From: Minisyncoccota bacterium
Lineage (GTDB): Bacteria > Patescibacteriota > Minisyncoccia > Phycocordibacterales > SBAW01
NCBI GenBank assembly: GCA_035546615.1
Contig: DASZWM010000001.1
Span: forward strand, 1 to 40,516
Direction of reading: 5' to 3'
Length of the DNA stretch: 40,516 nt
A program made the translations under genes and the position numbers. Shown here one piece after another: positions 23-40,164 of the stretch (position 1 is its first letter; each line of letters starts with the position of its first letter). Under the pieces are notes generated by a model. It was not told the origin of the DNA and searched no databases. It saw nothing but the letters and a program-made list of their open reading frames with translations.

Positions 23-23
23 T

Positions 24-71: not shown

Positions 72-82
72 TAAAAGTAGTT

Positions 83-1630: not shown

Positions 1631-1656
1631 CGCGATATCTTACTCAGGGTATCGGT

Positions 1657-1995: not shown

Positions 1996-2042
1996 ATACG
2001 AGCAATACTACCAAGCGCGTCCGCCCGCGCGCAACCGGGAGC

Positions 2043-3401
2043 TTACGGCGTCGGGACGATGGGCGAACTCCGGAGCCTGCTGATTATCTCGCGCAGGGTC
2101 GCCTCGTTGGTCGTGATGACGAGCACGTTGCGGTTAATGAAGGTCCACAGCAGGAGTATCTGTTCGTCCGCATTCTGCAGGACACGCGCGTCATGATTCT
2201 CCACGATGCGGTCTATAAACCCGGCATTCACCGGAGACGCTTCCGGCGCCGGAGGCGACGCATCATCAGTGGAGCTTGCCGCAGAGCCCTCAGTGGATGT
2301 GGCGGTTGTGGTGGCGACGGGCGCGGACGGCGCGGTCCGTATCAGGACCGGCGGCACGCGCACGAACAAGGGGGACAGGTCGGCGCGCATATACGGCTCC
2401 CAAGCGAGCATGCCGGCGTACGCGCCCTCGTAGGAATCGGCTTTCAGTATGAGGAAGGGCTGGTTGCCGTCGAAGGAATGTATGCCCAAAAGGTACGTGT
2501 TCGGCTCGATGGAGCGCAGAAGCGTGTCGGGCACGCTAGGGGAAAGATATCGGACGAACGCGGCAGCGGAAAGCGGAATGAATGCCTGTCCCGCGGCCGT
2601 AGTCGAAGCGACGCCCAGCTGCAGCCGCTCCATGAGGCCGAGCGAAAGGGCGACCCCGCTGCGCTGGTCTTCGAGCGCCCGGATGAAATTAGAGTGGGTA
2701 AACGTCTGCTCCGGCACGGTAAGCGCTTTCGTGGCGTCCACCTGTATGAACGGCGCGTCTTCCTGAAGCGGCACGTCGACTGCCCGGGGCGGCTGGAGCA
2801 CCCAGAAAAGGGCTCCGGCGGCCGCCACCAATAACACTACTCCTCCTGCGATAAGGCCGATACGCTGCGCCCACGCCTTGATGTCGATGGGCGCGCTTTG
2901 CGCGGGCGCTTCCACTTGCGCCCCGCGTCGCGCCGCTTCGGCCGCGGCTATGGACAGTATGGAAACGTTCTTGCTCTGCACGAGCCCTTCGATATCGCCC
3001 TGATAGGTTTCGATAGACCGGACTCCCGTTGCCTCTTTCTTCGGCTGTGCGGCAGGCGCGGGGGCGGGCGTTTTCGGCAATACGGCCGTTTGCTCCGACT
3101 GCAAAAGCGCGCCCGCGTTCACGCGCTGCGCGCTGTCTACCGACTTCCCCGGCGCGTCTTTTTTCGGAAGCAGAATCTTCCCAAGGTCTATGCCCGTGGA
3201 AGGCGCCTTCGCTTCCGGAGCTGCGGGAACCGGCACGGGAGCCTGAGGCGCGGCGGGTATTGCAGCCGGAGTCGAGGCCGGAGGAGGAGTTATCGGAGGA
3301 ACTGCGACTGCGGGAGCGGCAGGGGGCGCCGCAGGAGGTGCGGGCGGATTATTTGCCGCCGAAGCGGGGCCTGCGGTCGGTTGAGCTTTGTCCGGTTCCA
3401 T
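2043..3401 (-). CDS. Hypothetical membrane protein: Pro/Ala-rich N-terminal region, one TM helix, extracytoplasmic domain, Ser/Thr/Pro-rich linker and a C-terminal domain
   Basis: Long ORF with GC3-rich codon usage; TM helix IGLIAGGVVLLVAAAGALFWVL; no recognisable catalytic motif; same strand as pnp and directly downstream of it. Confidence 0.55.
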   Translation of the reverse strand: MEPDKAQPTAGPASAANNPPAPPAAPPAAPAVAVPPITPPPASTPAAIPAAPQAPVPVPAAPEAKAPSTGIDLGKILLPKKDAPGKSVDSAQRVNAGALLQSEQTAVLPKTPAPAPAAQPKKEATGVRSIETYQGDIEGLVQSKNVSILSIAAAEAARRGAQVEAPAQSAPIDIKAWAQRIGLIAGGVVLLVAAAGALFWVLQPPRAVDVPLQEDAPFIQVDATKALTVPEQTFTHSNFIRALEDQRSGVALSLGLMERLQLGVASTTAAGQAFIPLSAAAFVRYLSPSVPDTLLRSIEPNTYLLGIHSFDGNQPFLILKADSYEGAYAGMLAWEPYMRADLSPLFVRVPPVLIRTAPSAPVATTTATSTEGSAASSTDDASPPAPEASPVNAGFIDRIVENHDARVLQNADEQILLLWTFINRNVLVITTNEATLREIISRLRSSPIVPTP

Positions 3402-13698: not shown

Positions 13699-13730
13699 GG
13701 CACAATTCTAGCACGCCCCCTAGGGCTTAT

Positions 13731-13803
13731 GCCCTCGTGGCTCAATGGATAGAGCGCCTGGCTTCGAACCAGGAGGTTCCAGGTTCAAGTCCTGGCGAGG
13801 GCA
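13731..13803 (+). tRNA. tRNA-Arg (anticodon TCG)
   Basis: Manual cloverleaf: acceptor GCCCTCG/CGAGGGC, anticodon arm CCTGG-CTTCGAA-CCAGG, T arm CCAGG-TTCAAGT-CCTGG. Confidence 0.8.
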
Positions 13804-13850
13804 CAAACTTGGAGTTTAAAAATTGGTGCGCTACTATAGTGTGTGTACAA

Positions 13851-13921
13851 GCGGTCATTGTTTAATGGTAGGACGCGTCCTTGCCAAGGACGAGGTGGGA
13901 GTTCGATTCTCCCTGACCGCA
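13851..13921 (+). tRNA. tRNA-Gly (anticodon GCC)
   Basis: Acceptor GCGGTCA/TGACCGC, anticodon arm CGTCC-TTGCCAA-GGACG, T arm GGGAG-TTCGATT-CTCCC. Confidence 0.8.
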
Positions 13922-14137
13922 CAGGATTTACGTTGTTCTAAAAGGAGAAGTTGGTCCGTTTTGAGGTAAAAGACAGGGTGTGGCCGTTTGGGGATATTGA
14001 AATGGCTTAAAATAAGGCTTTTTCAATAAGACCTGTGGATAAGACTGTGGAAATGTGCATAAAGGACGTCCTTTTTACCCTTTGCGGAAGTCTGATTTCC
14101 AAAAAACCAGCAAAATAGGGCTTAAAATGAGCTTTTT

Positions 14138-14155
14138 ACGTTTCATATGAAACGT
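14138..14155. promoter_or_regulatory. 18-bp perfect palindrome ACGTTTCATATGAAACGT, about 40 bp upstream of yraN
   Basis: Seen directly; lies in the AT-rich tRNA-Gly/yraN intergenic region; candidate operator. Confidence 0.35.
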
Positions 14156-14193
14156 TACACGTGAACCCTCGTCAGGATTCTGATGCATTAAAT

Positions 14194-14589
14194 ATGGCTA
14201 AAACTCACAAAAGAGCTATAGGAGATGCCGGCGAAGGTGTTGTTTGCCGGTATTTAGAAGGAAAAGGCTATCGGATTGTTGGTAGGAATTACTGGAAACC
14301 GTGGGGAGAGATAGACATCGTCGCTGAAAAAGGCGATTTGACCATATTTATAGAGGTTAAAACCGTTTCACGTGAAATGGACGGGGAGGGGATTTCACGC
14401 GAAACCTTCAGACCGGAGGAGAATATGCATCCGGATAAGGTAAAAAGGCTGCACCGGACTATACAAACCTACCTTTTAGAGAAAAAAGTCCCTGAAGCAA
14501 GGCCGTGGCGGCTAGACCTTGCCTGCGCCTATTTGGACTTTAAAACCCTTCAGGCGCGTGTTGAAATGTTGGAGAATGTGGTGTTGTAG
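14194..14589 (+). CDS. yraN: YraN/UPF0102-family endonuclease-like protein
   Basis: GEGVVCRYLEGKGYRIVGRNYWKPWGEIDIVAEKGDLTIFIEVKT matches the UPF0102 core; visibly lower GC than surrounding genes. Confidence 0.7.
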   Translation: MAKTHKRAIGDAGEGVVCRYLEGKGYRIVGRNYWKPWGEIDIVAEKGDLTIFIEVKTVSREMDGEGISRETFRPEENMHPDKVKRLHRTIQTYLLEKKVPEARPWRLDLACAYLDFKTLQARVEMLENVVL

Positions 14590-14658
14590 TGCTATCCTCA
14601 AATAATCCAGGCGAGGCAACGCACCGGTAGTACGATTGCGTGGGGTCAAATGCTGTGT

Positions 14659-14729
14659 CGGGGCGTCGTATATCGGTAGTACGCTTGCTTTGGGAGCAAG
14701 ATGGCCCAGTTCGATTCTGGGCGCCCCGA
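14659..14729 (+). tRNA. tRNA-Pro (anticodon TGG)
   Basis: Acceptor CGGGGCG/CGCCCCG, anticodon arm CTTGC-TTTGGGA-GCAAG, T arm CCCAG-TTCGATT-CTGGG; flanks extend the acceptor stem (CTGTGT/ACACAG). Confidence 0.8.
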
Positions 14730-14757
14730 CACAGTATTTGACCGTTAAAGACTTACA

Positions 14758-15630
14758 ATGGAACGCATACTTCTTACTACAAAGCCGCAAAAGGACTACG
14801 AGCTGCTCGACTCCGGCGGGGAAGAGAAGCTTGAACGGTACGGAAATGTCCTTTTGAGCCGGCCCGACCCGCAGGCGCTATGGCCCAAGCAGCTTCCTGA
14901 AGGGGAGTGGACGAAGGCGAATGCCCGCTATATCCGGGAAGGGAATACCGGCAAGTGGGTAGGGGAGTTGCCCAAAGAATGGCCTATAGAGCTCGGAAAT
15001 CTCAAATTCCTCATACGCCCGACGCCATTCAAACACACCGGCCTTTTTCCCGAGCAGATTTGCAATTGGGAGTGGGCAGGCGAGCTGATACGGGGCGCAG
15101 GAAGGCCTGTGTCGGCGTTAAACCTCTTTGGGTATACAGGAGGCGCTTCCCTTGCCGCGGCGGCCGCAGGCGCATCTGTAGTGCACGTAGACGCGTCTAA
15201 AACGGCCGTAGCGTGGGCGCGTGAGAATGCGGAACTCTCGGGCCTGGCTGACAAGCCTATACGATGGATAACGGAAGACGTGAAACTGTTCGTGGAGCGC
15301 GAGCTGAAGCGGGGGAATCGCTATGATCTGATATTGATGGACCCGCCCGCCTTCGGCCATGGGCCAAAAGACGAGTTGTGGAAGATTGAGGAGGACCTGC
15401 TGCCGCTTATAGAGGCTTGCACGCGGCTGTTGTCCGAAACGCCCGTAGGCATGCTGGTAAACGGCTATGCTGCCGGGTATTCGCCGCTGGCATTCGCGTA
15501 TAATCTGGAGCCTCTCGCGCAAAAAATGGGCGGCGCAACAGAATACGGCGACCTTACGATAGAAGAAAAGGGGAGCGGGCGGCTCCTACCGTGCGGCATT
15601 TTCGCGCGCTGGCGCGCAAAAAACCTTTAG
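14758..15630 (+). CDS. Class I SAM-dependent RNA methyltransferase, RlmI/RlmK-like
   Basis: LFGYTGGASL SAM-binding motif I and ILMDPPAFG motif IV; overall arrangement like 23S rRNA m5C methyltransferases. Confidence 0.65.
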   Translation: MERILLTTKPQKDYELLDSGGEEKLERYGNVLLSRPDPQALWPKQLPEGEWTKANARYIREGNTGKWVGELPKEWPIELGNLKFLIRPTPFKHTGLFPEQICNWEWAGELIRGAGRPVSALNLFGYTGGASLAAAAAGASVVHVDASKTAVAWARENAELSGLADKPIRWITEDVKLFVERELKRGNRYDLILMDPPAFGHGPKDELWKIEEDLLPLIEACTRLLSETPVGMLVNGYAAGYSPLAFAYNLEPLAQKMGGATEYGDLTIEEKGSGRLLPCGIFARWRAKNL

Positions 15631-16764
15631 TTACTGGGCTTTCAGGGCTTTTATAAGCGCTGCGCGCTCTTGCGCCGCCGCAGACGATTCAAAGTCTTTG
15701 GCTTCCTGCACGACATCTTTCGAAAGCAGCCCTTCGATACCGCCCTTGTCGTAGCTGAGAAGGCTGCGATTGATATGCGCGAGCGTTACGGCCCTGAGGT
15801 CGCGGCCTTCGGTCGTACCGGCGGTCGTGCTTGTCGTAATGATGCCCTGCAGGCGCCCGTCCTGCGTCCGAACCGCCGCTCCGCCTGAAGAGCCGCCTTG
15901 CGATACGACCGTGCCGCCTATCGAGACCAGGTCTACAGTGCGCTTCGTGAACGTGAAAAGTTCCTTAACCGCGGCGAAGGCCGAAGAAGGGTAAAGGTTC
16001 TGCCGGATGGACGTGCCGTCCAGGAAGCCGGCGGGATAGGCGGCCAAGAACATGTTCTGCCCGACCTTGGGCGCGTCTATGGTCATCGAAAGGGCAGGGA
16101 AGGAGGCGGGAAGCGAATCTTTCGCGCTGACCGTATCCGTCACGATAAGGAAAGCGTAATCGTTCTCGCCCGTGCCGCGGGCGTCCGTGAGCGTTATCTG
16201 CGGCGCATGGTCTTCTATCCAGGCGGGCGGCAAGTATAGGAGCCTGGCTTTGTATGCGGCAGCGGCGGGGCTTCCGGTGCGGAGCGTGCAGTCGACGTCG
16301 CCGCGGGTAGGGTAGTCGGAGAGCAGGAACATCTGCCCGACGTGGGCATTGGTAAGCACTATGCCGCGAGAGTCTACGAACACGCCGCTTCCGGATATGG
16401 GATGCACTTTATTGGTTTTTGTGAGGCACAGGATATTTACAAGCGCGGCGCGGGTTTTGTCGTTGAGCACGTCGGCGGAGAGTTCCGCGGCCGGCGGCTG
16501 CGCGGGAGTCGTTGATGCAGCCAGCGGTTTCGGCGCATTGGCGGAAACAGGAGCGGAAACAGGAATATATTCCTCCTGTTCGATCGGTATATCGTTCGGC
16601 ACAACCTGGAAGCGGGGCGGGGGAGGGGATACCGCGCCCGTTACGGGCGCGACCGATACGACCGTGTCGCTCGGAATGTAGGTATCCACGACGTTGCCGA
16701 CGAACATGGTCAGCGCTGCCCCCATGGCCACGAACGCCGACAGTAGCGTCGAGATTATTTCCAT
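15631..16764 (-). CDS. Membrane-anchored trypsin-like (S1) serine protease
   Basis: N-terminal TM helix; catalytic triad contexts TNAHV (His), DYAFL (Asp), GGSSGGA (Ser). Confidence 0.7.
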   Translation of the reverse strand: MEIISTLLSAFVAMGAALTMFVGNVVDTYIPSDTVVSVAPVTGAVSPPPPRFQVVPNDIPIEQEEYIPVSAPVSANAPKPLAASTTPAQPPAAELSADVLNDKTRAALVNILCLTKTNKVHPISGSGVFVDSRGIVLTNAHVGQMFLLSDYPTRGDVDCTLRTGSPAAAAYKARLLYLPPAWIEDHAPQITLTDARGTGENDYAFLIVTDTVSAKDSLPASFPALSMTIDAPKVGQNMFLAAYPAGFLDGTSIRQNLYPSSAFAAVKELFTFTKRTVDLVSIGGTVVSQGGSSGGAAVRTQDGRLQGIITTSTTAGTTEGRDLRAVTLAHINRSLLSYDKGGIEGLLSKDVVQEAKDFESSAAAQERAALIKALKAQ

Positions 16765-16830
16765 AGTAAATATAGTATACGCTCCAATAAGAATGCGCGA
16801 TTCATTAGCGGCGCAGTTGCGATGCGAAAT

Positions 16831-16904
16831 GCGGGATTAGTTTAGTGGTAAAACGACAGTTTTCCAAACTGTAGTTGGGAGTTCGATTCTCCCATCCCGC
16901 ACCA
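16831..16904 (+). tRNA. tRNA-Gly (anticodon TCC) with encoded CCA
   Basis: Acceptor GCGGGAT/ATCCCGC, anticodon arm ACAGT-TTTCCAA-ACTGT, T arm GGGAG-TTCGATT-CTCCC, 3' ACCA. Confidence 0.8.
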
Positions 16905-31548: not shown

Positions 31549-32697
31549 ATGTTCAAAAAGACGCGCGAAGAATTCCTCCGGTTTTCAAAAGCTTTCCTGC
31601 TAGCCGCTTTAGTTCTTCTGGGAAGCGCGGCGCTCGCCGATTGGACCGCGCCCGTTGCCGCGCCACCCACCTGCGCTTCCGGCAACCAGGGCTGCGACGC
31701 GCCCATCAACGTAAGCGCAACAGCACAAACCAAAACGGGCAATCTCACCATCGGCTCAGGCGGCACGAACGTGCTCATTTCCGCCACCGGTTATATCTGG
31801 CCTACTATCCTGAATGTCGGCAGCACCTATCCAACCACGCCCCCTCCCAACAGCATTTGCCTATCGGGTTCGTGCATTACCGCCTGGAGCCAAGCCGGCG
31901 GAGGCGGGACTGACTATCAGGCCTTCACTACTGCGGGTGCTGGGTCATGCCCCGGCACTGGCACTAATTGCTGGACGAAGCCAAGCGGCACCACCGCGTC
32001 ATCACGTACGCTCATAGAGTGCTGGGGAGCGGGCGGCGGAGGCAGCGCTAATGGCGGGGGTGGGGGCGGCGCATATCGCGGGCGCTGGGTCCTGACCTCA
32101 TCTCTCGGCGCGACCGAACCGGTTACTATCCCTGGCACAAGCAACACAGCAACCGCAGGAGCGGCAGCTTCTTTCGGAACCTGGGCAACAGCACCGGGGG
32201 GTGGGGCAAGCAACACGACAAGCGGCGGAGGCGGAGGCGGAGGTGGCGGGTATGATGCGGCAGGCGGCAATGCCGGCGTCGGCGGCGGGGGCTATGCCGC
32301 CAGCGGCGGTAACGGCGGCAATGCCGCGTATAGTTACGGCCTTGCAGGCCTGTGCAGCCTTTCTTCCAACGTGGCACTGCGTACCGGTACTGACGCTACC
32401 AGCGGAGGCGGAGGCGGAGGCGCGGCAGGCTGCGAGGGCGCAGACAAAGGAGGCGACTCCATTACCGGCGGCGGGGGTGGCGGCGGCAACCATGGAGACG
32501 GTAACCCGAAGAACGGCGGCAACTCAATATGGGGCGGCGGAGGAGGCTCAGCCGGGTCTTCAGGAGGAAGCGGAGGGCGCAGTATGTACGGCGGCGCGGG
32601 CGGCGCGACCGGTGTTGCGGGTACCGCGCCGGGCGGCGGCGGCGGGCGCAACGCCCAAGGAGCCCGCGGCGAATGCAGGGTTACGACGTTTAAGTAG
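31549..32697 (+). CDS. Secreted glycine-rich protein (Gly_rich / polyglycine-II-like), with an N-terminal Cys-containing domain
   Basis: Sec signal peptide ...AALA; IECWGAGGGGS, GGGGGGGGGYDAAGGNAGVGGGGY and further Gly runs; antisense frames are Pro-rich artefacts. Confidence 0.65.
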   Translation: MFKKTREEFLRFSKAFLLAALVLLGSAALADWTAPVAAPPTCASGNQGCDAPINVSATAQTKTGNLTIGSGGTNVLISATGYIWPTILNVGSTYPTTPPPNSICLSGSCITAWSQAGGGGTDYQAFTTAGAGSCPGTGTNCWTKPSGTTASSRTLIECWGAGGGGSANGGGGGGAYRGRWVLTSSLGATEPVTIPGTSNTATAGAAASFGTWATAPGGGASNTTSGGGGGGGGGYDAAGGNAGVGGGGYAASGGNGGNAAYSYGLAGLCSLSSNVALRTGTDATSGGGGGGAAGCEGADKGGDSITGGGGGGGNHGDGNPKNGGNSIWGGGGGSAGSSGGSGGRSMYGGAGGATGVAGTAPGGGGGRNAQGARGECRVTTFK

Positions 32698-32705
32698 ATT
32701 ATTTT

Positions 32706-33065
32706 TTAGAGCGCCGCGCGGATCTTCCGCGCGTTCCCTTCAAGGTCCGTTTTTTCGCCCTTCGCGTTGTTATTGGGAAATACCCAGATATGCGCGTGCT
32801 CCACTTCGTCGCCCACTGTTTTTGAAAGTATCCAGTCGGTGTCGAACGCCTGTTGCTGGGCTTTGGCTATTTTTTTCGCTACCTCAAAATATGCTCCGGC
32901 ATTCGGCACGTCCCAGACCCAGCGGTAGTGCTCTTTCGGAATTACCTGGGCATGTCCCGGCGATTGCGGGTGTATGTCGAGGAAGGCGAGGAAATGCTCG
33001 TCCTCATACACCTTCTGCGCGGGAATCTCTCCGGCTACTATTTTGCAGAAAATACAGTCAGGCAT
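32706..33065 (-). CDS. HIT-family (histidine triad) nucleotide hydrolase
   Basis: HAHIWVFP histidine-triad motif and an N-terminal CxxC. Confidence 0.85.
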   Translation of the reverse strand: MPDCIFCKIVAGEIPAQKVYEDEHFLAFLDIHPQSPGHAQVIPKEHYRWVWDVPNAGAYFEVAKKIAKAQQQAFDTDWILSKTVGDEVEHAHIWVFPNNNAKGEKTDLEGNARKIRAAL

Positions 33066-33088
33066 GCCTCTATAGTATACTTCTTCCG

Positions 33089-34768
33089 ATGAAATCCTAC
33101 CGATTGCGCGAGCGGGCGCACGATGAGCTGCTCCCGGACCTCATGCTCGCCCGCGGCGTCGTCGGCGATGAGGCGCAGAAGCAGTTCCTCGCGCCCGACT
33201 TCGAGCGCGACTCCGGCGATCCCTTTCTGCTGCCTGACATGGATAAGGCGGTCGACCGCATTCTGTCCGCGGTGAAGAATGCCGAGGCGGTGTGCGTGTG
33301 GAGCGACTACGACTGCGACGGGATTCCCGGCGGCGTCATGCTCACGGAGTTTTTGCGCTCCATCGGTTTGACCGTTCGCCACTATATTCCGCATCGCCAC
33401 ACCGAAGGGTACGGATTGAACGAAGAGGGAATAGAAGAGCTCGTACAGCAGGGCATCAAGCTCATCATCACCATTGATCTCGGCACGACCGAGATAGAAC
33501 AGATCGCGTACGCCAATTCCAAAGGCGTCGACGTCATCGTCACCGATCACCACATCGTGCAGGACGATCTTCCGGATGCGTTCGCTCTGCTCAATCCGAA
33601 GCGTCCCGACAGCGCGTACCCGTTCGACGGATTGTGCGGCGCGGGCGTTGCGTGGAAGTTGGTGCAAGCAACGCTCGCGCGTTTGCGCGCGAGCGACAAT
33701 CAAATAGACTGGCGCGGTTTTCCGGAAGGCCAGGAGAAATGGCTGCTTGACCTGGTCGGCATCGCCACGCTTTCCGACATGGTGCCGCTCGTCGGCGAGA
33801 ATCGCATGCTCGCGCATTTCGGTTTGCGCGTTCTTCGCCGCGACCGGCGCCCCGGCCTTTCCGCGCTTTTGAAATTGCTGCGCATCAAGCCGTCCACGCT
33901 TACGGAAGACGATATCGGATTCATGGTGTCTCCGCGCATCAACGCCGCCTCAAGGATGGACAAGCCCGACACCGCGGCGCGCCTGCTTGCTACGTCCAAT
34001 GCCGTGGAAGCATCCGACATCGCCTTCGAGCTCAACCGCATCAACGACGAGCGCAAGGGAGTGGTTGCCGCGATAGTGAAGGAGGCGAACAAGCGCATGG
34101 AGGATATGCCTGCCGACGGTCCCGTCATCGTCATGGGAAATCCGAAGTGGCGCCCCGGCGTGCTCGGTCTCGTCGCAAACAGCTTGATGGAAGCGCAGGG
34201 GAAGCCCGCGTTCTTGTGGGGCCGGGAAGGCGGAGAAACAATAAAGGGCTCGTGCCGCTCCGACGGTTCCGTCAGCGTCGTCGATCTCATGGCTGCGGCC
34301 GGAGACGTGTTCCTCGGGTTCGGCGGACATACCGCCTCCGGCGGATTCTCGGTCGATGCCGGGCGCGTGCACGAGCTCTTGCCGCGGCTGACGTCTGCGT
34401 ATGAAATGCTGCGCGCGAAAGCGTCTGTCGCGCAAGATGTTGTTATAGACCGGCAGGCTGACCTGTCTGAGATCTCCCACGCCCACCGCGACTTGGTAAA
34501 GCTTGCCCCGTTCGGTATCGGCAATAGCAAGCCCCTGTTCATGTTCCCCGACGTCTCAATCGGCAACACGAAGATGTTCGGCAAGACCAATAATCATCTG
34601 GATATGAGCCTGGAGAAAGGCGGCAGCCGTATCTCCGGCATCGCGTTCTTCTCCGGCCACGATTCGTTCACGAAGAAGGTGGAGAAGGGCGCCCGCGCCG
34701 ACATCGTGGGCCACATAGAGAGCGACTGGAGGGGGCAGTCGCGCATCCGGGTTGTTGATATACTCTAA
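33089..34768 (+). CDS. recJ: Single-stranded-DNA-specific exonuclease RecJ (DHH + DHHA1); start at MKSYRLRE
   Basis: DHH motifs (DYDCDG, ITDHH), DHHA1 GGGH region; the longer upstream in-frame extension is not coding. Confidence 0.9.
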   Translation: MKSYRLRERAHDELLPDLMLARGVVGDEAQKQFLAPDFERDSGDPFLLPDMDKAVDRILSAVKNAEAVCVWSDYDCDGIPGGVMLTEFLRSIGLTVRHYIPHRHTEGYGLNEEGIEELVQQGIKLIITIDLGTTEIEQIAYANSKGVDVIVTDHHIVQDDLPDAFALLNPKRPDSAYPFDGLCGAGVAWKLVQATLARLRASDNQIDWRGFPEGQEKWLLDLVGIATLSDMVPLVGENRMLAHFGLRVLRRDRRPGLSALLKLLRIKPSTLTEDDIGFMVSPRINAASRMDKPDTAARLLATSNAVEASDIAFELNRINDERKGVVAAIVKEANKRMEDMPADGPVIVMGNPKWRPGVLGLVANSLMEAQGKPAFLWGREGGETIKGSCRSDGSVSVVDLMAAAGDVFLGFGGHTASGGFSVDAGRVHELLPRLTSAYEMLRAKASVAQDVVIDRQADLSEISHAHRDLVKLAPFGIGNSKPLFMFPDVSIGNTKMFGKTNNHLDMSLEKGGSRISGIAFFSGHDSFTKKVEKGARADIVGHIESDWRGQSRIRVVDIL

Positions 34769-34782
34769 ATACACAAAGTTTC

Positions 34783-35208
34783 ATGGAGCGCATCATTATG
34801 CATACCGATGGAGGTTCGAGAGGCAACCCGGGGCCAGCGGGCATTGGCGTTGTGGTTAAGCGGGAAAACGGGGAAGTTGTGTATGAGGTTTCACGGTACA
34901 TCGGGGAGACGACCAATAACATCGCCGAGTACGAAGCACTCATCGCCGGCCTTGAAGAAGCCAAGAAAAAGTTCGGCAGCACCCTCCGGGAGATGACTAT
35001 AGATGTCCGTATGGATTCAGAACTGGTGGTGCGCCAGCTCACCGGAGTCTACAAGGTAAAGGATCCGGGCATGAAGGAGCGGTTTGCGCGCGTGGCGAAG
35101 ATACGCATGGAAGACGCGCCCAATATGACCTTCACTCATGTCTACCGCGAGGAAAATTCCCATGCTGACGAACTCGTGAATAAGGCGATAGATGCGGCGG
35201 TGAGATAA
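34783..35208 (+). CDS. rnhA: Ribonuclease HI
   Basis: TDGGSRGNPGPAG, NNIAEYEALIAGL, DSELVVRQ, HAD catalytic contexts. Confidence 0.85.
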   Translation: MERIIMHTDGGSRGNPGPAGIGVVVKRENGEVVYEVSRYIGETTNNIAEYEALIAGLEEAKKKFGSTLREMTIDVRMDSELVVRQLTGVYKVKDPGMKERFARVAKIRMEDAPNMTFTHVYREENSHADELVNKAIDAAVR

Positions 35209-35210
35209 GT

Positions 35211-35741
35211 ATGAAAATCATAATCGGATCGGAAAGCAAAAGAAAGATAGAAGTTGCTGAACGCACCCTTAGGCAATTCTTTAAGGATGAGCTAGAAGTA
35301 CTGGGATACAAGGCTCTTTCAGGCGTTCCAGAGACCCCATACGATAAAGAGACATTTGATGGAGCCAGAAACAGAGCACTTGACGCGAAGGTTCATGCAC
35401 CGGACGCTGAACTATACGTCGGTATGGAAAGCGGCCTTATTGAACGCTACGGACATATATTTGAAGAAGCATGGAGCGTTATTCTCGCGGGCGGCAAAGA
35501 GTACTTTGGATACTCCAGCGGTCTGAAAGTCCCCGATTTTATATTGGCGAAAATGAACGCGCTCAAAATGCCGCACTCGGAAGTTATGGGGATGCTTGAA
35601 AAAGAATATGACCTGCCTCCAAGCGACACATGGAAGACCTATTCCGGAGGGACGATTTTAAGGGAAATAAGTTTAGAAGAATCGCTGCGCAATGCGCTTA
35701 TACAAGTTACGGCGCCAGAAAAAAGCTTCTATAGAAAATAG
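35211..35741 (+). CDS. Non-canonical purine NTP phosphatase, YjjX/DUF84 family (inosine/xanthosine triphosphatase-like)
   Basis: SGVPETP...GARNRA core resembles YjjX; visibly lower GC than the flanking genes. Confidence 0.6.
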   Translation: MKIIIGSESKRKIEVAERTLRQFFKDELEVLGYKALSGVPETPYDKETFDGARNRALDAKVHAPDAELYVGMESGLIERYGHIFEEAWSVILAGGKEYFGYSSGLKVPDFILAKMNALKMPHSEVMGMLEKEYDLPPSDTWKTYSGGTILREISLEESLRNALIQVTAPEKSFYRK

Positions 35742-35744
35742 TCT

Positions 35745-35773
35745 TTGACACTATAAAAAAATAAAAGTAGTCT
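35745..35773 (+). promoter_or_regulatory. Sigma70-like promoter candidate (TTGACA-N17-TAGTCT) upstream of comEC
   Basis: Perfect -35 hexamer seen directly; GTG start at 35781. Confidence 0.3.
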
Positions 35774-35780
35774 GCCCTGC

Positions 35781-37136
35781 GTGGCAAATCGTTTCATATT
35801 GGGTCTGCTTATTTTGGCCTATGTTGGCGCGCTTATCGTGCGGACAGATTTTCTTTTACGAAGCGAGGCAGGGGAGACGCTTAAGAATTACGTCGGCACT
35901 TCTGCGACTGTTGAAGGGAGGGTCGTGAACGACCCAGAACATCGCGACACGTCGCTCCACGTCAACGTCGAAGTTTCTAAAATAAATGATGAAGCTGCAA
36001 GCGGCGTATTGCTTGCGATACTGCCGCGAGAAGCGCAACTTCAGTACGGAGACAGAGTCGCGCTTAAAGGAAAAGTAACCGCGCCGGAATCTTTTGAAAC
36101 TGATACCGGGAGAATATTTGATTACGCCGGCTACCTGCGCGTGCAGGGAGTATCGGCGATGCTTAAATACGGAACGATTGAAGAAATAAATCCCGGCGGA
36201 TGGTCGCTCCAAAAAACGCTGTTCGATATCAAGCACGGGTTCGAACACTCGCTTGAGCGAATGCTGCCGGAGCCGGACAACTCGCTGCTCGAAGGGGTAC
36301 TCCTCGGCGAGCGGCGCGGATTGCCCGACAGCCTCAACCATGCGTTTATCGTCTCAAGCCTGGTGCATGTTGTCGTGCTCTCCGGCTACAACATTTCTAT
36401 CGTCGCCAATGCGATGCTGTACGCGACCAGCATTTTGCCTCGCACGCTTAGCTACGGGCTCGGCGGCGTGCTGATGGTCCTCTTCGCTATCATGACGGGC
36501 GCCGGCGCCACGACGGTACGCGCGTGCGCCATGGGTATCATCGCGATAGTGGCGCAGTATATGCGCCGCAGGGCCGTAGCTATGCGCAGCCTCATTGCGG
36601 CGGCGGGCGCCATGGCGTTGTGGAATCCGCTCATTATCCTGCACGACACTTCCTTCATATTGAGCGTGCTGGCGACCTTCGGGCTCATTACGCTGTCGCC
36701 GTGGGTGGAAACATACCTCTCTTGGATGCCGCGGTGGAAATATCTGGACGTACGCGCCATAGCCGCCTCTACCATTGCGGTGCAGATATACATATTGCCC
36801 GCGCTGCTGTACTTCATGGGCATACTTTCGTTCGTAGCGCTTCCGGCCAATATGCTGGCGCTCCCGGTCGTGCCGTTCGCGATGCTCTTAGGTTTTTTTG
36901 CAGGGGTTGTGGGGCTGATCCAGCCGGTTCTTGGGCTGCCGCTGGCATTCCTCGCGGATATTCTGTTGCGCTGGATGATGTTGGTGGCAAACACCGCCGC
37001 ATCCCTGCCGTTTTCTTCAGCCACCATAGCCGCGTTCCCTGCATGGGTCGCAGTTGCGGTCTATATTCCCCTGACGGGCTTCGCTATCTGGCTATATCGA
37101 AACGCTTCTCGAGAACAGACCAGTTCAAGTTCTTAA
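35781..37136 (+). CDS. comEC: ComEC/Rec2 DNA-uptake channel: DUF4131 OB-fold plus Competence domain, lacking the C-terminal metallo-beta-lactamase domain
   Basis: N-terminal OB-like region, then a polytopic TM region with LLGERRGLPD...FIVSSLVHVVVLSGYNIS typical of the Competence domain. Confidence 0.8.
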   Translation: MANRFILGLLILAYVGALIVRTDFLLRSEAGETLKNYVGTSATVEGRVVNDPEHRDTSLHVNVEVSKINDEAASGVLLAILPREAQLQYGDRVALKGKVTAPESFETDTGRIFDYAGYLRVQGVSAMLKYGTIEEINPGGWSLQKTLFDIKHGFEHSLERMLPEPDNSLLEGVLLGERRGLPDSLNHAFIVSSLVHVVVLSGYNISIVANAMLYATSILPRTLSYGLGGVLMVLFAIMTGAGATTVRACAMGIIAIVAQYMRRRAVAMRSLIAAAGAMALWNPLIILHDTSFILSVLATFGLITLSPWVETYLSWMPRWKYLDVRAIAASTIAVQIYILPALLYFMGILSFVALPANMLALPVVPFAMLLGFFAGVVGLIQPVLGLPLAFLADILLRWMMLVANTAASLPFSSATIAAFPAWVAVAVYIPLTGFAIWLYRNASREQTSSSS

Positions 37137-37674
37137 GGAATGCCTCGACGTACTTAGCTTTTCCGGTAGCGCCATAATCCAAAAGGAATGCATGTTCCCA
37201 CACATCCAATGCCAGGATGACGGGGAGCGTTACAAAATGCCCTTGGTGCTGTTCGCCTGAGAAACCGGTTATGAATTGCTTGCCCTGCGGGTCCCAATAG
37301 AGCATGGCCCAGCCCGGGCCGCGCATCATGGCTATCATCTTGAACATCTCGAGGAAGTATTCCGGTTTGTGGTATTCGGCCTCCAATTGCTTGGCCAGAG
37401 GGCTGTCGGGGGAGAGGGGAGCTCCTCCTCCTTCGAATTGCGAGAAATACAGCTCGTGGAGGCGCATGCCGTCCCATTCGAACGAGCGGCGGCGGATAAG
37501 CTCCGCAAGCGCGTGATTATTCTTCTCGGCTTCTTTCGCGTATTCCGGCAAAAGTGCCGACATCGCGTTGAAATTCTTGACGTACCCGGCGTAAAGTACC
37601 AAATGCTGCTCTATGGACTCCTTAGAAATGCCTTCCAGTGCCGGCAGATCAAACTTTTTTTCTTGGTATTGCAT
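37084..37674 (-). CDS. sodA: Fe/Mn-family superoxide dismutase
   Basis: DVWEHAF..DY C-terminal metal-ligand motif and overall Fe/Mn SOD layout; 3' end overlaps the comEC 3' end by 53 nt (convergent). Confidence 0.85.
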   Translation of the reverse strand: MQYQEKKFDLPALEGISKESIEQHLVLYAGYVKNFNAMSALLPEYAKEAEKNNHALAELIRRRSFEWDGMRLHELYFSQFEGGGAPLSPDSPLAKQLEAEYHKPEYFLEMFKMIAMMRGPGWAMLYWDPQGKQFITGFSGEQHQGHFVTLPVILALDVWEHAFLLDYGATGKAKYVEAFLKNLNWSVLEKRFDIAR

Positions 37675-37832
37675 CTACTCAGTAAAACACCATCCGGGTG
37701 AAGCCCTAATAAAGATATCCCCAGCAAGGCTTGCTAAAAAACGCCCTTGTAGCATAGTTATGGCGGTTACGGTGTACTGCCGCTCTGGCAGATCAAAAGT
37801 CGAGAATTCACCGCGCATCCAGGAGGCACCCT

Positions 37833-38312
37833 ATGCGCTATCTATTAGCCGCAGTCGGAGCCTGTGTGGCCTTGGCTGCTGTATCATCAGCGAATGCATT
37901 CGACGGGCTTTATCCGAAGATCGTGTCTGTGCCGCAGGATGATGCGGGTTATGGCGGAGAAACAACAATATCGCCATTACCCGATCCTCCTCTAGCGGAC
38001 GAAGATAACGTCAACGGGACTGATGATGTCGACCTTGTTGTTGAAGGCAAGGGTGACATCATCTTCTGTACCGCCGAGGACTACTACTGCTACGCCAGCT
38101 CTTCCTGGAAAGAGGCTCGAGAAAAGGCCCTTCCTCTCGTTGAGGCGGGAATCTTTTTTCCACTTCCCGGAGCTCGCGTGCTGGAGGAGACCGAGGTTGT
38201 CTGGCTGTTCGATTCCGACGTTCTGATCGAGCGGGCTTCCCGTTTCAGTCATGAACCGCCGTATGACCGGCCGTCGGTCGGCCGAGAGCCGATCGTCGCA
38301 TCGGCACCATGA
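37833..38312 (+). CDS. Secreted hypothetical protein, 159 aa, translationally coupled (ATGA) to the downstream MBL gene
   Basis: CAGGAGG SD; Sec signal peptide MRYLLAAVGACVALAAVSSANA; acidic mature part. Confidence 0.5.
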   Translation: MRYLLAAVGACVALAAVSSANAFDGLYPKIVSVPQDDAGYGGETTISPLPDPPLADEDNVNGTDDVDLVVEGKGDIIFCTAEDYYCYASSSWKEAREKALPLVEAGIFFPLPGARVLEETEVVWLFDSDVLIERASRFSHEPPYDRPSVGREPIVASAP

Positions 38313-39250
38313 AGGAAGTCGTGAGCCCGGACGACCATATGTCGCCCGGGTTCCTGCTTTTTATGTATACTTTCCGCATGCGGTTTTTGCGGCAGTATTT
38401 TTCATACATCGTGTTCGTGGCGCTTGTCCTTGCCTCCATCGGCATCTGGAGCGCGGTATTCGCCGCAACGCCCAGCGGCGTCCTTACGTTCGCGGTACTC
38501 GATATCGGGCAAGGAGACTCCTTATATATAGAGTCTCCTGTGGGTACGCAGATACTCATTGACGGGGGGCCTGACGGATCGGTTTTGCACGAGCTGCCGA
38601 AAGTGATGAGCTTTTCAGACCGCTCCATTGATGCGGTCATCGCGACGCATCCGGACGCGGACCATATCGCAGGGCTGGTCGATGTGCTCAAGCGCTACAG
38701 CGTCGGTGATTTTCTCGAGCCGGGCATCGCCAAGAGCACGGTTACCGCGCAGGCGCTTGAAGACGGCGTGGACGCAGCAGATATTCCGCGCATCAAAGCT
38801 ATGCGCGGCATGTGGCTGGACCTCGGCGGGGGAGCGCGCCTCGACATTTTGTCGCCGGACTTTGACGTTTCGACCCTTAAGCCCGACGAGGCAAACGAAG
38901 GCTGTGTTGTTTCAAGGCTCACCTACGGCGCCACATCCGTTCTGCTCATGTGCGACGCGCCGATGGACGTGGAAGGTCACTTGATGGGTATCGAACCCGT
39001 TGCCGATCTGAAGAGCAACATTTTAAAAGTAGGCCATCACGGCTCCGCAGGCTCGACGGGGGACGCGTTCGTTTCTGAAGTGGATCCGTCCGTGGCGGTT
39101 ATCTCGGTAGGGGCCGGGAACCGGTACGGTCATCCTACCCGGCAAACGCTCGATACGCTTGCAGGCCACAATATAAAAACCCTCCGGACCGACGAGGAGG
39201 GGACTATCGAGTTTATATCGAACGGGGAGACCTTCGAGCGGATTAGATAA
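38309..39250 (+). CDS. Stand-alone membrane-anchored metallo-beta-lactamase domain of ComEC type (the ComEC C-terminal domain as a separate gene)
   Basis: TM helix, then VLDIGQGDSLYI, HPDADH and VGHHGS motifs typical of the ComEC MBL domain. Confidence 0.7.
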   Translation: MKEVVSPDDHMSPGFLLFMYTFRMRFLRQYFSYIVFVALVLASIGIWSAVFAATPSGVLTFAVLDIGQGDSLYIESPVGTQILIDGGPDGSVLHELPKVMSFSDRSIDAVIATHPDADHIAGLVDVLKRYSVGDFLEPGIAKSTVTAQALEDGVDAADIPRIKAMRGMWLDLGGGARLDILSPDFDVSTLKPDEANEGCVVSRLTYGATSVLLMCDAPMDVEGHLMGIEPVADLKSNILKVGHHGSAGSTGDAFVSEVDPSVAVISVGAGNRYGHPTRQTLDTLAGHNIKTLRTDEEGTIEFISNGETFERIR

Positions 39251-39485
39251 GGCCTGCTGCCTTCAAAGTCTTGTAGGCGCCGTTCTTGGTGACAGTGCGC
39301 ATGCCCTTGGTGGAAAGCGTTACGGTGACGGTGCGGTTAAGCTCCGGCACGAAGATGCGCTTCTTCTGCATGTTCGGCTGCTTGCGGACCATGCCGGTCG
39401 GGTTGAACTTGGTGGCGCGCACGCGGTTAGAATAGCCGCCTGCGACTTTGGAGCCCTTTTTTGCTACCGGACAATACTTTGCCAT
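39243..39485 (-). CDS. rpmB: 50S ribosomal protein L28
   Basis: MAKYCPVAKKG...VTVTLSTKGMRTV pattern of L28. Confidence 0.8.
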   Translation of the reverse strand: MAKYCPVAKKGSKVAGGYSNRVRATKFNPTGMVRKQPNMQKKRIFVPELNRTVTVTLSTKGMRTVTKNGAYKTLKAAGLI

Positions 39486-39525: not shown

Positions 39526-40164
39526 ATGCCAACTGACCTTATTTTCAGCGTCCTTATCCTCATAGTGTCGGTCATCCTCCACGAGGTGGCCCACGGATAT
39601 ATGGCCAATTGGCTGGGCGATCCGACGGCGCGGCTCCAGGGGAGGCTCACCCTCAACCCCATATCCCATATCGACCCGATAGGGACGATCATCCTGCCGG
39701 CCATCCTGGTATTTACGCACTCTCCTATATTGATCGGCTACGCCAAGCCGGTGCCGTACAACCCGTATAACCTGAAAGGGAAGTATGACGAGGGGCTGGT
39801 GGCGTTCGCCGGCCCGGGCACCAACATCCTTTTGGCGCTCATTTTCGGCCTCACGATACGGTTCTTCGGGGGAGCATTGGACCAGGAGCTCCTCCAGGCA
39901 TTCGCGCTCATCACGTACATCAACATGCTGCTGGCGCTCTTCAATCTCATTCCCATCCCGCCCCTGGACGGCTCCAAAGTGCTCTCGAGCATACTGCCGG
40001 GGGAATTGGGCCGATGGTACGATTCGTTCCGTGCGAACTTCGAGCGCCTGGGCACGCTCTCGGGCACGCTCCTACTTCTTTTTATCTTCTACTACTTTCT
40101 CTCGCCGTTTTTCGGAGCGGCGCTTCAGAATCTGTTCGCGCTTTTGACCGGGGTTTCCATATAA
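39526..40164 (+). CDS. Site-2 protease (M50-like) family membrane metalloprotease
   Basis: HEVAHG (HExxH) within a TM helix and a downstream NLIPIPPLDGS motif. Confidence 0.7.
   Translation: MPTDLIFSVLILIVSVILHEVAHGYMANWLGDPTARLQGRLTLNPISHIDPIGTIILPAILVFTHSPILIGYAKPVPYNPYNLKGKYDEGLVAFAGPGTNILLALIFGLTIRFFGGALDQELLQAFALITYINMLLALFNLIPIPPLDGSKVLSSILPGELGRWYDSFRANFERLGTLSGTLLLLFIFYYFLSPFFGAALQNLFALLTGVSI

What the first reader, a model, noticed from the sequence alone, without database searches (positions are those of the whole stretch)
35781..39250. ComEC split into a channel gene and a separate MBL-domain gene, with sodA (opposite strand) and a secreted ORF in between
The 451-aa ORF has the DUF4131 OB-fold and Competence (channel) domains but ends without the metallo-beta-lactamase nuclease domain. 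A separate 313-aa ORF 1.2 kb downstream has an N-terminal TM helix plus the ComEC-type MBL signatures (VLDIGQGDSLYI, HPDADH, VGHHGS). A convergent superoxide dismutase gene overlaps the comEC 3' end by 53 nt, and a secreted 159-aa ORF is translationally coupled (ATGA) to the MBL gene. Either this is a natural two-piece ComEC with an insertion, or a frameshift or assembly break.
Basis: partly seen in the sequence, partly recalled or inferred. Interest (0 to 1): 0.6.

Follow-up and report, generated by a model that had tools for sequence, protein, structure and literature searches.

The report
Naturally split two-gene ComEC in Paceibacteria
The DNA-uptake protein ComEC is encoded here as two separate genes, a membrane channel and a membrane-anchored nuclease, with a superoxide dismutase gene wedged between them on the opposite strand; this layout recurs in dozens of related ultra-small bacteria, so it is a natural feature and not an assembly error.

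Summary
A 451-aa OB-fold + channel gene (35781-37136, +) and an MBL gene (+ strand, ends 39250) are consecutive, non-overlapping parts of ComEC. On the solved 801-aa ComEC 30bt they map to residues 143-500 and 534-789. A Fe/Mn-SOD gene (37084-37674, -) overlaps the channel gene's 3' end by 53 nt.

The split is real and old. In 65 of 66 related species-level genomes where both pieces are visible, they are separate ORFs. SOD lies between them in 56 loci where both flanks are seen. The best 120 database relatives of each piece are all stand-alone.

The break falls in the cytoplasmic loop before the last TM helix. That helix travels with the nuclease as its membrane anchor.

Two details need correction. 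The MBL gene most likely starts at 38378 (290 aa), not 38309. The stretch between holds a conserved terminator hairpin and a -10-like box 6 nt before the ATG, so the "ATGA coupling" to ORF159 is an artefact of the longest ORF. ORF159 is probably a real small secreted-protein gene, but it evolves fast and is confined to the closest relatives.

This is a new, apparently undescribed variant of a known system, of moderate interest.

The parts
33089..34768 (+). recJ-like ssDNA exonuclease gene. First gene of the co-directional array that ends with the ComEC channel gene (context).
   Evidence: Pfam DHH, DHHA1 and RecJ_OB. The 855-aa ORF from 32201 is over-extended.
34783..35208 (+). RNase H-like gene (context). 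It lies upstream of the channel gene in most relatives.
   Evidence: Pfam RNase_H and RVT_3. tblastn hits upstream of comEC-N in most loci.
35211..35741 (+). NTPase_I-T (DUF84) gene, 39 nt upstream of the channel gene (context). Not found at this place in relatives.
   Evidence: Pfam PF01931, E 2e-24. Only L001 matches.
35781..37136 (+). ComEC channel subunit gene (451 aa): one N-terminal TM helix, the OB fold (DUF4131) and the Competence TM domain. It ends after the helix that corresponds to TM10.
   Evidence: Pfam. TIGR00361 positions 59-390. Residues 87-445 map to 143-500 of the solved ComEC 30bt and to 77-510 of the full-length P0182. The best 120 relatives are all 352-528 aa without an MBL domain.
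37084..37136 (.). 53-nt convergent overlap of the channel gene and SOD gene 3' ends.
   Evidence: An overlap occurs in 25 of 55 related loci, and 21 of those 25 share the same phase (overlap length = 2 mod 3).
37084..37674 (-). Fe/Mn-family superoxide dismutase gene (196 aa) lodged between the two ComEC genes on the opposite strand.
   Evidence: Sod_Fe_C E 2e-19. Full-length match to Aquifex Fe-SOD 1coj, E 4e-22, with all four metal ligands aligned. Same place and strand in 56 loci, plus 8 partial loci.
37833..38312 (+). ORF159: probable small secreted protein, fast-evolving and restricted to the window's closest clade.
   Evidence: Signal-peptide-like N-terminus. AGGAGG 7 nt upstream. No relative among 5.8 billion proteins except itself. 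No Pfam, NCBIfam or PHROGs hit. Weak position-matched similarity to the ORF at the same position in L002 (E 3e-6), which in turn matches L006 (E 8e-6). Small signal-peptide or TM ORFs at the same spot in L004, L005, L008 and L012. Codon score is best in frame 0 but weak.
38318..38362 (+). Hairpin plus T-rich tail: probable intrinsic terminator of ORF159. It lies inside the spurious 5' extension of the 313-aa ORF.
   Evidence: dG -21.4 kcal/mol, z -4.5, 0 of 200 shuffles as good. Hairpins at the same position with different sequences in L002, L006, L007 and L008 (z -3.4 to -6.8). The simple scanner did not call it.
38366..38371 (+). TATACT, a -10-like box ending 6 nt before the MBL ATG. Probable own promoter and a leaderless mRNA.
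   Evidence: A -10-like hexamer ends 4-10 nt before the MBL start in 34 of 47 genomes, against 13 % of random positions. 0 of 47 have an SD-like motif.
38378..39250 (+). ComEC nuclease subunit gene (290 aa): short N-terminus (MRFLRQY), one TM helix corresponding to TM11, a linker, and the ComEC-type MBL domain (HxDxDH). The maximal ORF starts at 38309 (313 aa).
   Evidence: TIGR00361 positions 413-663. All six PDB hits are ComEC; residues 35-284 map to 534-789 of 30bt. The match to full-length ComECs starts in the TM helix (residue 15 to 523 of P0186). The start at M24 is shared by homologues.
39243..39485 (-). rpmB (ribosomal protein L28). Its 3' end overlaps the MBL gene by 8 nt. Conserved downstream neighbour (context).
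   Evidence: Pfam Ribosomal_L28. Synteny in nearly all loci.
39526..40164 (+). M50-family membrane protease gene, conserved downstream neighbour (context).
   Evidence: Pfam Peptidase_M50. Synteny.

Best explanation
This is an ancient, fixed fission of comEC into two genes in Paceibacteria-type Patescibacteria.

Gene 1 encodes the DNA channel with its OB fold. It sits at the end of a recJ / RNase H / NTPase array.

Gene 2 encodes the last TM helix of ComEC plus the extracellular metallo-beta-lactamase nuclease domain. It has its own promoter and is probably translated from a leaderless mRNA.

The break lies in the short cytoplasmic loop between the helices corresponding to TM10 and TM11. As a result, both products insert with the same topology as in one-piece ComEC: the OB fold and the nuclease face outside.

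Inferred mechanism: the anchored nuclease docks back onto the channel subunit, through its TM helix and the small OB-MBL contact. It then degrades the non-transported strand while the channel imports the other strand, as in one-piece ComEC.

A Fe/Mn superoxide dismutase gene was later inserted between the halves in the opposite orientation. It is tail-to-tail and overlapping with the channel gene, and head-to-head with the nuclease gene. It has been inherited in that position by a large clade, most likely as a passenger locked in by tight gene packing. In the window's closest relatives, a small fast-evolving secreted-protein gene (ORF159) with its own SD and terminator was added between SOD and the nuclease gene.

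Shown: domain content, contiguity, conservation of the split and of gene order, intact catalytic motifs, and separate start, terminator and -10 signals. Inferred: physical reassembly, nuclease activity, leaderless transcription, and the order of evolutionary events.

The confidence of 0.8 refers to 'natural, conserved two-gene ComEC'. For physical reassembly of the two products I would give about 0.6.
For: The two pieces are consecutive, non-overlapping parts of ComEC:
- TIGR00361 positions 59-390 and 413-663.
- 30bt residues 143-500 and 534-789.
- P0182 residues 77-510 and 544-793, with one hydrophobic helix between them.

The MBL piece is ComEC-type:
- It matches only ComEC among solved structures.
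- It has the ComEC-type H-x-D-x-D-H motif described in PMC12455585, invariant in homologues.

The split is the rule in this lineage:
- The top 120 relatives of the MBL piece are all 250-327 aa.
- The top 120 relatives of the channel piece are all 352-528 aa with DUF4131 + Competence only.
- 65 of 66 loci are split and 1 is fused (the Chloroflexota-labelled outgroup L073).
- In the 50 %-identity library, about 123 of the best 150 are stand-alone and 19 are full-length ComECs, at the same 40-46 % identity.

Gene order: comEC-N(+) SOD(-) MBL(+) rpmB(-) M50(+) is conserved in 56 loci. The overlap phase is conserved in 21 of 25 overlapping loci.

It is not an assembly artefact: an independent assembly gives the identical locus.

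The MBL gene is expressed on its own: terminator hairpin and -10 box enrichment of 34 of 47 against 13 %.

Structural rationale from PMC13539106: the channel is formed by TM4-9. TM10 and TM11 are peripheral, with a cytoplasmic helix between them. TM11 is mobile. The MBL domain hangs from a flexible linker and makes only a small OB contact.

The NJ tree places SOD-less adjacent split forms (Berkelbacteria L052, L078, L072, L063) basal to one large SOD-containing clade.
Against: - No direct evidence shows that the two proteins interact or that either is expressed.
- In vitro, an OB fold supplied in trans does not stimulate the ComEC nuclease, while tethering gives about 7-fold (PMC12455585). A split form could therefore be less efficient unless it assembles tightly.
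- One relative (L075) keeps SOD and the MBL gene but has no channel gene at the locus, so the nuclease may be able to act alone.
- The tree is a single-protein NJ tree without support values.
- Loci were selected by similarity to the stand-alone MBL, which biases the sample toward split forms.
- Many MAG records carry unreliable taxon labels.
- The -10/leaderless inference rests on sequence pattern only, and the sigma-70 scan found no full promoter there.
Confidence: 0.8

Rival explanations
1. The two genes are functionally uncoupled. The anchored MBL protein acts as a free-standing surface nuclease that degrades environmental DNA, for example to scavenge nucleotides in organisms that cannot make them. 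The channel protein works without a dedicated nuclease, as in Helicobacter.
For: - The MBL gene has its own promoter signal and terminator context, while the channel gene sits in a different transcription array.
- L075 retains the MBL gene without an adjacent channel gene.
- Competent bacteria with MBL-less ComEC exist (PMC12455585).
- The isolated ComEC MBL domain is an active nuclease in vitro.
Against: - The two genes stay neighbours in nearly every genome examined, despite 60-65 % sequence divergence and an intervening gene.
- The MBL piece keeps the ComEC TM helix rather than a cleavable signal peptide.
- The isolated domain binds DNA undetectably weakly without a nearby OB fold.
Confidence: 0.2
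2. The split is an artefact or a recent lesion: a frameshift, mis-assembly or chimeric MAG contig that broke a single comEC.
For: The window is a metagenome-assembled contig.
Against: - An independent assembly gives the same locus.
- 65 of 66 related loci from many studies and assemblers are split.
- Both pieces keep invariant functional residues.
- The MBL piece has its own conserved start.
- A complete, ligand-intact SOD gene lies between the pieces on the other strand.
Confidence: 0.01
3. The interruption is a programmed one. The SOD-containing segment would be an excisable or invertible element, like the skin element in sigK or the prophage in Listeria comK, whose removal restores a one-piece comEC.
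For: A gene is interrupted by foreign DNA on the opposite strand, which superficially resembles known developmentally excised elements (own knowledge).
Against: - No recombinase gene is present and no flanking direct or inverted repeats beyond short chance matches.
- The channel ORF runs 53 nt into the SOD gene.
- The MBL piece has its own start codon and promoter signal.
- SOD-less relatives are still split.
- The insert is only about 0.6-1.2 kb and carries a housekeeping-type gene.
Confidence: 0.01
4. The position of SOD is functional. Convergent overlap with the channel gene and a shared divergent control region with the nuclease gene would couple DNA uptake to oxidative-stress state, through antisense interference or co-regulation.
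For: - The tail-to-tail overlap is conserved in phase in 21 of 25 overlapping loci.
- The SOD-MBL head-to-head spacing is under about 150 nt in most loci.
- SOD presence varies with oxygen exposure among Patescibacteria (PMC8672522).
Against: - Several nested lineages lost SOD and kept the split genes adjacent.
- In 12 loci other DNA separates the channel gene from SOD, and in the window ORF159 separates SOD from the MBL gene.
- Compact genomes often fix arbitrary neighbourhoods.
- No regulatory RNA or Rfam family was found.
Confidence: 0.08

Closest known systems
One-piece ComEC/Rec2 (DUF4131-Competence-Lactamase_B; e.g. Bacillus subtilis ComEC and the solved Moorella/Neomoorella ComEC, PDB 30bt and 9ic4)
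   Same: All three modules are present in the same order and presumably the same topology. The ComEC-type H-x-D-x-D-H nuclease motif is present. Channel-domain similarity runs across the region corresponding to TM4-TM10.
   Different: The modules lie on two polypeptides, cut between the helices corresponding to TM10 and TM11. There is only one TM helix before the OB fold instead of three (PMC13539106). The two genes are separated by an antisense SOD gene and have separate expression signals.
ComEC orthologues described as lacking the beta-lactamase-like domain (the 'DC' profile of Pimentel & Zhang 2018, PMC6299819; Helicobacter pylori ComEC)
   Same: Taken alone, the 451-aa protein has exactly the DC profile (DUF4131 + Competence) and a single N-terminal TM helix, like H. 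pylori ComEC.
   Different: Here the nuclease domain is not lost. It is encoded 1.2 kb downstream as a separate membrane-anchored protein. Protein-by-protein domain surveys would score these genomes as 'Lactamase_B lost'.
Streptococcus pneumoniae EndA with ComEC (a separate membrane nuclease serving the uptake channel)
   Same: A separately encoded, membrane-bound nuclease would degrade the non-transported strand next to the channel (PMC12455585).
   Different: EndA is unrelated to the MBL fold. Here the separate nuclease is the ComEC domain itself, together with ComEC's own last TM helix.
Genes interrupted by excisable elements (B. subtilis sigK/skin, Listeria comK prophage); comparison from own knowledge
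   Same: A coding sequence is interrupted by DNA that carries genes on the other strand.
   Different: There is no recombinase and there are no repeats. Both halves are complete, independently started genes, and the arrangement is fixed across a large clade.

Membership tests
ComEC/Rec2 DNA-uptake channel | Competence transmembrane domain (PF03772) | tested here: met
   E 1.6e-43, 149.5 bits against a cutoff of 23; residues 174-439 cover profile positions 2-268 of 270.
ComEC/Rec2 DNA-uptake channel | N-terminal OB fold (DUF4131, PF13567) | tested here: met
   E 2.2e-14, 53.9 bits against a cutoff of 31.6.
ComEC/Rec2 DNA-uptake channel | C-terminal ComEC-type MBL nuclease domain with metal-binding H-x-D-x-D-H and downstream His/Asp ligands | tested here: met
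   HPDADH, D216 and GHHGS are invariant in 20 homologues. Only ComEC chains are hit in the PDB, with 9ic4 at E 2.8e-31. The domain lies on a separate polypeptide.
ComEC/Rec2 DNA-uptake channel | All domains on one polypeptide (canonical DCL architecture; TIGR00361 equivalog cutoff of 190 bits) | tested here: not met
   There are two ORFs with an antisense gene between them. Each piece alone is below the cutoff (83.6 and 109.0 bits). Their sum of 192.6 just reaches it.
ComEC/Rec2 DNA-uptake channel | Requirement for DNA import or natural transformation | not testable with these tools
   Shown only for one-piece comEC in a Saccharibacterium (PMC10633639). No cultured Paceibacteria data were found.
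Fe/Mn superoxide dismutase | Two-domain fold with four metal ligands (His, His, Asp, His) | tested here: met
   Sod_Fe_C scores 69.9 bits. Sod_Fe_N is below the Pfam cutoff (20.3 against 27). The full-length alignment to 1coj (E 3.8e-22) nevertheless aligns H in EQH, H in LHELYF, and D and H in DVWEH.
Intrinsic (rho-independent) terminator, downstream of ORF159 | Stable GC-rich hairpin followed by a T-run | tested here: met
   dG -21.4, z -4.5, followed by CUUUUU. Equivalent hairpins occur in 4 relatives. The simple scanner did not call it. Termination itself was not tested.
Leaderless mRNA / own promoter for the MBL gene | -10 hexamer about 6-7 nt upstream of the start codon and no Shine-Dalgarno motif | tested here: inconclusive
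   The pattern is present in the window (TATACT, 6 nt) and in 34 of 47 genomes, against 13 % of random positions; 0 of 47 have an SD. No full sigma-70 match was found, and the transcription start site has not been measured.
Excisable intervening element (skin/prophage type) | Site-specific recombinase and flanking repeats that restore the reading frame | tested here: not met
   Only short, imperfect chance repeats were found. No recombinase gene lies among the ORFs of the insert.

The most novel reading that the evidence does not exclude
Paceibacteria run ComEC as an obligate two-subunit machine whose nuclease subunit is regulated separately, through its own leaderless promoter that shares a divergent control region with SOD. 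Cells could then tune the nuclease-to-channel ratio, for example to switch between destroying DNA for nucleotides and importing it intact, possibly in response to oxidative stress. The conserved antisense SOD would be part of that control and not a passenger.
Probability: 0.12. Interest if true: 0.7.

Novelty: new variant of a known kind. Interest (0 to 1): 0.45.

Why it matters
**Annotation and evolution.** Domain surveys that look at one protein at a time would count these very abundant bacteria as having "lost" the ComEC nuclease, when the nuclease is in fact encoded next door. PGAP names it only "MBL fold metallo-hydrolase", because each half falls below the ComEC model cutoff.

**Mechanism.** Nature has cut ComEC at the peripheral, mobile helix TM11 that the 2026 cryo-EM structure singled out. 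This gives a natural test of whether the nuclease must be covalently tethered to the OB fold and channel; in vitro, trans addition of the OB fold did not stimulate it. It also suggests a design for producing the nuclease and channel as separate, more tractable proteins.

**Biology of CPR bacteria.** DNA uptake is thought to be central to these nucleotide-auxotrophic organisms. Separate promoters for the channel and nuclease would allow independent control.

**Synteny marker.** The conserved, phase-locked SOD insertion is a useful marker for this clade.

Tried and rejected
- **Pseudo-fused structure model.** I built a paired channel+MBL alignment from proteins on the same contigs (A4). No structure or fold search was run, because sequence matches to solved ComECs were already decisive.
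- **Excisable-element idea.** The repeat search around SOD gave only chance-level matches.
- **RNA elements.** Rfam gathering-threshold scan of the whole window and a permissive scan of 37000-38500 found only four tRNAs elsewhere.
- **ORF159 function.** No Pfam, NCBIfam or PHROGs hit. No relatives in the 5.8-billion-protein search.
- **Promoter/terminator scanner.** It did not call the hairpin at 38318-38362 or a promoter before 38378. Folding and cross-genome comparison were used instead.
- **Prior descriptions.** Literature searches (ComEC with Patescibacteria/split, candidate phyla radiation/truncated, Parcubacteria/superoxide dismutase, COG2333/COG0658) found no paper describing the split or the SOD insertion. 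The library does not cover subscription-only papers.
- **dN/dS.** Not attempted, because the nearest locus with DNA in hand is only about 60-65 % identical in protein, so synonymous sites would be saturated.


Full report
**Observation**

The window is the 40,516-bp contig of a "Candidatus Paceibacterota" MAG: P0001 and P0271 are 100 % identical proteins from a contig of that length.

[quoted passage not shown] The downstream ORF (38309/38378-39250, +) carries a metallo-beta-lactamase domain. The minus-strand ORF at 37084-37674 is a Fe/Mn-type superoxide dismutase. It overlaps the 3' end of the channel gene by 53 nt. A 159-aa ORF with a signal-peptide-like N-terminus lies at 37833-38312.

**Are the two pieces really the two halves of ComEC?**

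Yes. Three lines of evidence agree.

- On the ComEC/Rec2 model TIGR00361 (663 positions), the channel ORF covers positions 59-390 and the MBL ORF covers 413-663.
- On the solved 801-aa ComEC 30bt, they cover residues 143-500 and 534-789.
- On full-length database ComECs, the picture is the same. On P0182 they cover 77-510 and 544-793, with a single hydrophobic helix between. On P0186 the MBL protein aligns from its own TM helix onward (residue 15 to 523).

The only solved structures the MBL protein matches are ComECs, with the isolated ComEC nuclease domain 9ic4 at E 3e-31. It carries the ComEC-type H-x-D-x-D-H motif (HPDADH) described for that domain (PMC12455585). H114, D116, D118, H119, D216, H243 and H244 are invariant in 20 homologues.

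**Is the split real?**

Yes.

- An independent Logan assembly of run SRR12170516 reproduces the whole locus exactly.
- The 120 best relatives of the MBL protein among 5.8 billion proteins are all 250-327 aa.
- The 120 best relatives of the channel protein are all 352-528 aa, with DUF4131 + Competence and no MBL domain.
- In a scan of one genome per species, 80 related loci were recovered. Both pieces were visible in 66 of them. They are separate ORFs in 65 and fused in one, L073, which is labelled Chloroflexota.
- In the 50 %-identity representative library, about 123 of the best 150 matches are stand-alone proteins. Another 19 are full-length ComECs (623-874 aa) at the same 40-46 % identity, with the match at their C-terminus.

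**Gene order**

The order comEC-channel(+) / SOD(-) / MBL(+) / rpmB(-) / M50 protease(+) recurs in 56 loci, plus 8 more where the contig ends before the channel gene. It is found in Zambryski-, Kaiser-, Taylor-, Yonath-, Campbell- and Nomurabacteria-type MAGs, at protein identities down to about 35-40 %.

The tail-to-tail overlap of the channel gene and SOD is present in 25 of 55 loci. In 21 of those 25 the overlap length is 2 mod 3, like the 53 nt here, so the overlap looks inherited and not reinvented.

Where SOD is absent (L016, L017, L023, L040, L052 Berkelbacteria, L078), the two ComEC genes are directly adjacent or overlapping, but still separate.

A neighbour-joining tree of the MBL proteins, rooted on the fused form, places SOD-less split forms at the base. 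One large SOD-containing clade follows, with a few nested SOD losses. This suggests the sequence fission, then SOD insertion, then occasional SOD loss. The tree comes from a single protein and has no support values.

No repeats or recombinase flank SOD, so an excisable-element model is not supported.

**The SOD gene**

It aligns end to end with Fe-SODs of Aquifex and archaea (1coj, E 4e-22) and retains all four metal ligands. It looks like a working enzyme. SOD presence is known to vary among Patescibacteria with oxygen exposure (PMC8672522). That fits the presence and absence seen at this locus.

**Where the cut falls, and why it may be tolerated**

The 2026 cryo-EM structure of one-piece ComEC (PMC13539106) shows the following:

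- There are 11 TM helices, and the DNA channel is built from TM4-9.
- TM10 and TM11 are peripheral, with a short cytoplasmic helix between them.
- TM11 is mobile and even absent from the density of one protomer.
- The nuclease domain hangs from a flexible linker and makes only a small, weak contact with the OB fold.

The channel protein here ends just after its last hydrophobic helix (…AIWLYRNASREQTSSSS). The nuclease protein begins MRFLRQY, followed by one TM helix and then the MBL domain. By alignment, the cut is in the TM10-TM11 cytoplasmic loop, and TM11 has become the anchor of the nuclease (inference). Both products would keep the native topology, with the OB fold and nuclease outside.

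The channel protein has only one TM helix before the OB fold, where most ComECs have three (PMC13539106).

**Expression signals, and a correction to the finding**

The 313-aa ORF that overlaps ORF159 by ATGA is the longest possible ORF, not the likely gene.

- All homologues start at the position of M24 (38378), and NCBI aa.
- The 65 nt between ORF159's stop and 38378 fold into a stable hairpin followed by a T-run (dG -21.4 kcal/mol, z -4.5). Hairpins of different sequence occupy the same place in L002, L006, L007 and L008.
- Immediately after comes TATACT, ending 6 nt before the ATG.
- Across relatives, a -10-like hexamer ends 4-10 nt (mostly 6-7 nt) before the MBL start in 34 of 47 genomes, against 13 % of random positions. 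None has a Shine-Dalgarno motif there.

The nuclease gene is therefore most likely its own transcription unit, possibly leaderless. This is an inference from sequence pattern; the generic sigma-70 scan found nothing there.

The channel gene sits instead at the end of a tight co-directional array: recJ, an RNase H gene, an NTPase gene, then comEC-channel.

**ORF159**

ORF159 has no relative in the large protein database except itself and no family match. It does have several features of a real gene:

- a strong AGGAGG box;
- a signal-peptide-like N-terminus;
- the terminator described above;
- its best codon score in its own frame, although that score is weak;
- a position-matched similarity to the ORF at the same spot in L002 (E 3e-6), which in turn matches L006 (E 8e-6).

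Small signal-peptide or TM ORFs occupy the same spot in L004, L005, L008 and L012. More distant relatives have only 16-150 nt between SOD and the MBL gene.

ORF159 is best read as a real, fast-evolving, clade-restricted secreted protein that was inserted here. Nothing links it to ComEC function.

**How it probably works**

The most likely model (inference) is a two-subunit ComEC. The anchored nuclease re-associates with the channel subunit in the membrane and degrades the non-transported strand at the channel mouth.

The biochemistry of one-piece ComEC makes this association important. The isolated nuclease binds DNA very weakly. An OB fold added in solution does not help (0.26 vs 0.29 min-1), but tethering gives about 7-fold stimulation (PMC12455585).

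The main rival is that the nuclease acts on its own as a surface DNase. Its independent promoter is consistent with this, as is one genome (L075) that keeps SOD and the MBL gene without a channel gene at the locus. The near-universal linkage of the two genes and the retention of the ComEC TM helix argue against it.

**Comparison with what is known**

ComEC domain surveys classify DUF4131 + Competence proteins as having lost Lactamase_B (PMC6299819). Recent structural papers speak of orthologues that "lack" the domain (PMC12455585).

None of the papers found describes a separately encoded ComEC nuclease, or the SOD-interrupted arrangement in Patescibacteria. The searchable library is incomplete.

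Public annotation is inconsistent. JGI labels both genes "competence protein ComEC". NCBI labels the second "MBL fold metallo-hydrolase". The reason is that each half scores below the TIGR00361 cutoff (83.6 and 109.0 bits against 190), while their sum of 192.6 just reaches it.

ComEC-dependent natural transformation has been shown in a cultured Saccharibacterium (PMC10633639). It has not been shown in Paceibacteria.

**Verdict**

This is a genuine, ancient and widespread gene fission of ComEC, with a conserved antisense SOD insertion. It is a new variant of a known system and not a new kind of system.

It is of moderate interest to people who work on transformation and on CPR biology. It corrects a likely systematic mis-scoring of "nuclease loss", and it offers a natural split-protein experiment at exactly the hinge that the recent structures highlighted.

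Noticed in passing
window 33089-37136 (+): recJ, an RNase H-like gene, an NTPase_I-T (DUF84) gene and the ComEC channel gene form a tight co-directional array with gaps of 2-39 nt, i.e. an operon-like cluster of DNA- and nucleotide-processing genes. The RNase H gene upstream of the channel gene is conserved in most relatives. The NTPase gene is found only in this genome.
   Followed up: partly
window 32201-34768 (+) and 32706-33065 (-): The 855-aa ORF is an over-extended ORF in GC-rich DNA. Its 5' third overlaps a HIT-family gene on the minus strand. The recJ-like gene probably starts at 33089.
   Followed up: partly
window 39243-39250: The MBL gene and rpmB (L28, minus strand) overlap convergently by 8 nt. 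The MBL / rpmB / M50-protease order is conserved in nearly all related loci, so the nuclease gene is boxed in by overlaps or near-overlaps on both sides.
   Followed up: partly
L075:8200-10759: This relative (a 622-kb contig) has the RNase H gene, SOD and the MBL gene, but only about 650 nt where the channel gene should be. The nuclease gene apparently persists there without an adjacent channel gene. The rest of that genome was not examined.
   Followed up: no
window 35781-35900 (channel protein residues 1-40): The channel protein has a single TM helix before the OB fold. Most ComECs are reported to have three; H. pylori ComEC is the known one-helix exception (PMC13539106).
   Followed up: partly
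P0140 (721 aa): This relative has the ComEC-type MBL module at its N-terminus (residues 48-296) and two matched stretches. That is a different architecture from both the stand-alone and the C-terminal forms.
   Followed up: no
L009, L013, L041, L081 and many others (SOD start to MBL start): In most relatives, SOD and the MBL gene are head-to-head with only about 16-150 nt between them. The -10-like box of the MBL gene then lies right next to, or inside, the SOD 5' end, giving a very compact divergent control region.
   Followed up: partly
window 1-5000 and 13700-16900: The first 5 kb are notably GC-rich (0.60-0.65), with long overlapping ORFs on both strands. Four tRNA genes (Arg-TCG, Gly-GCC, Pro-TGG, Gly-TCC) cluster at 13.7-16.9 kb around a GC dip (0.48).
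   Followed up: no
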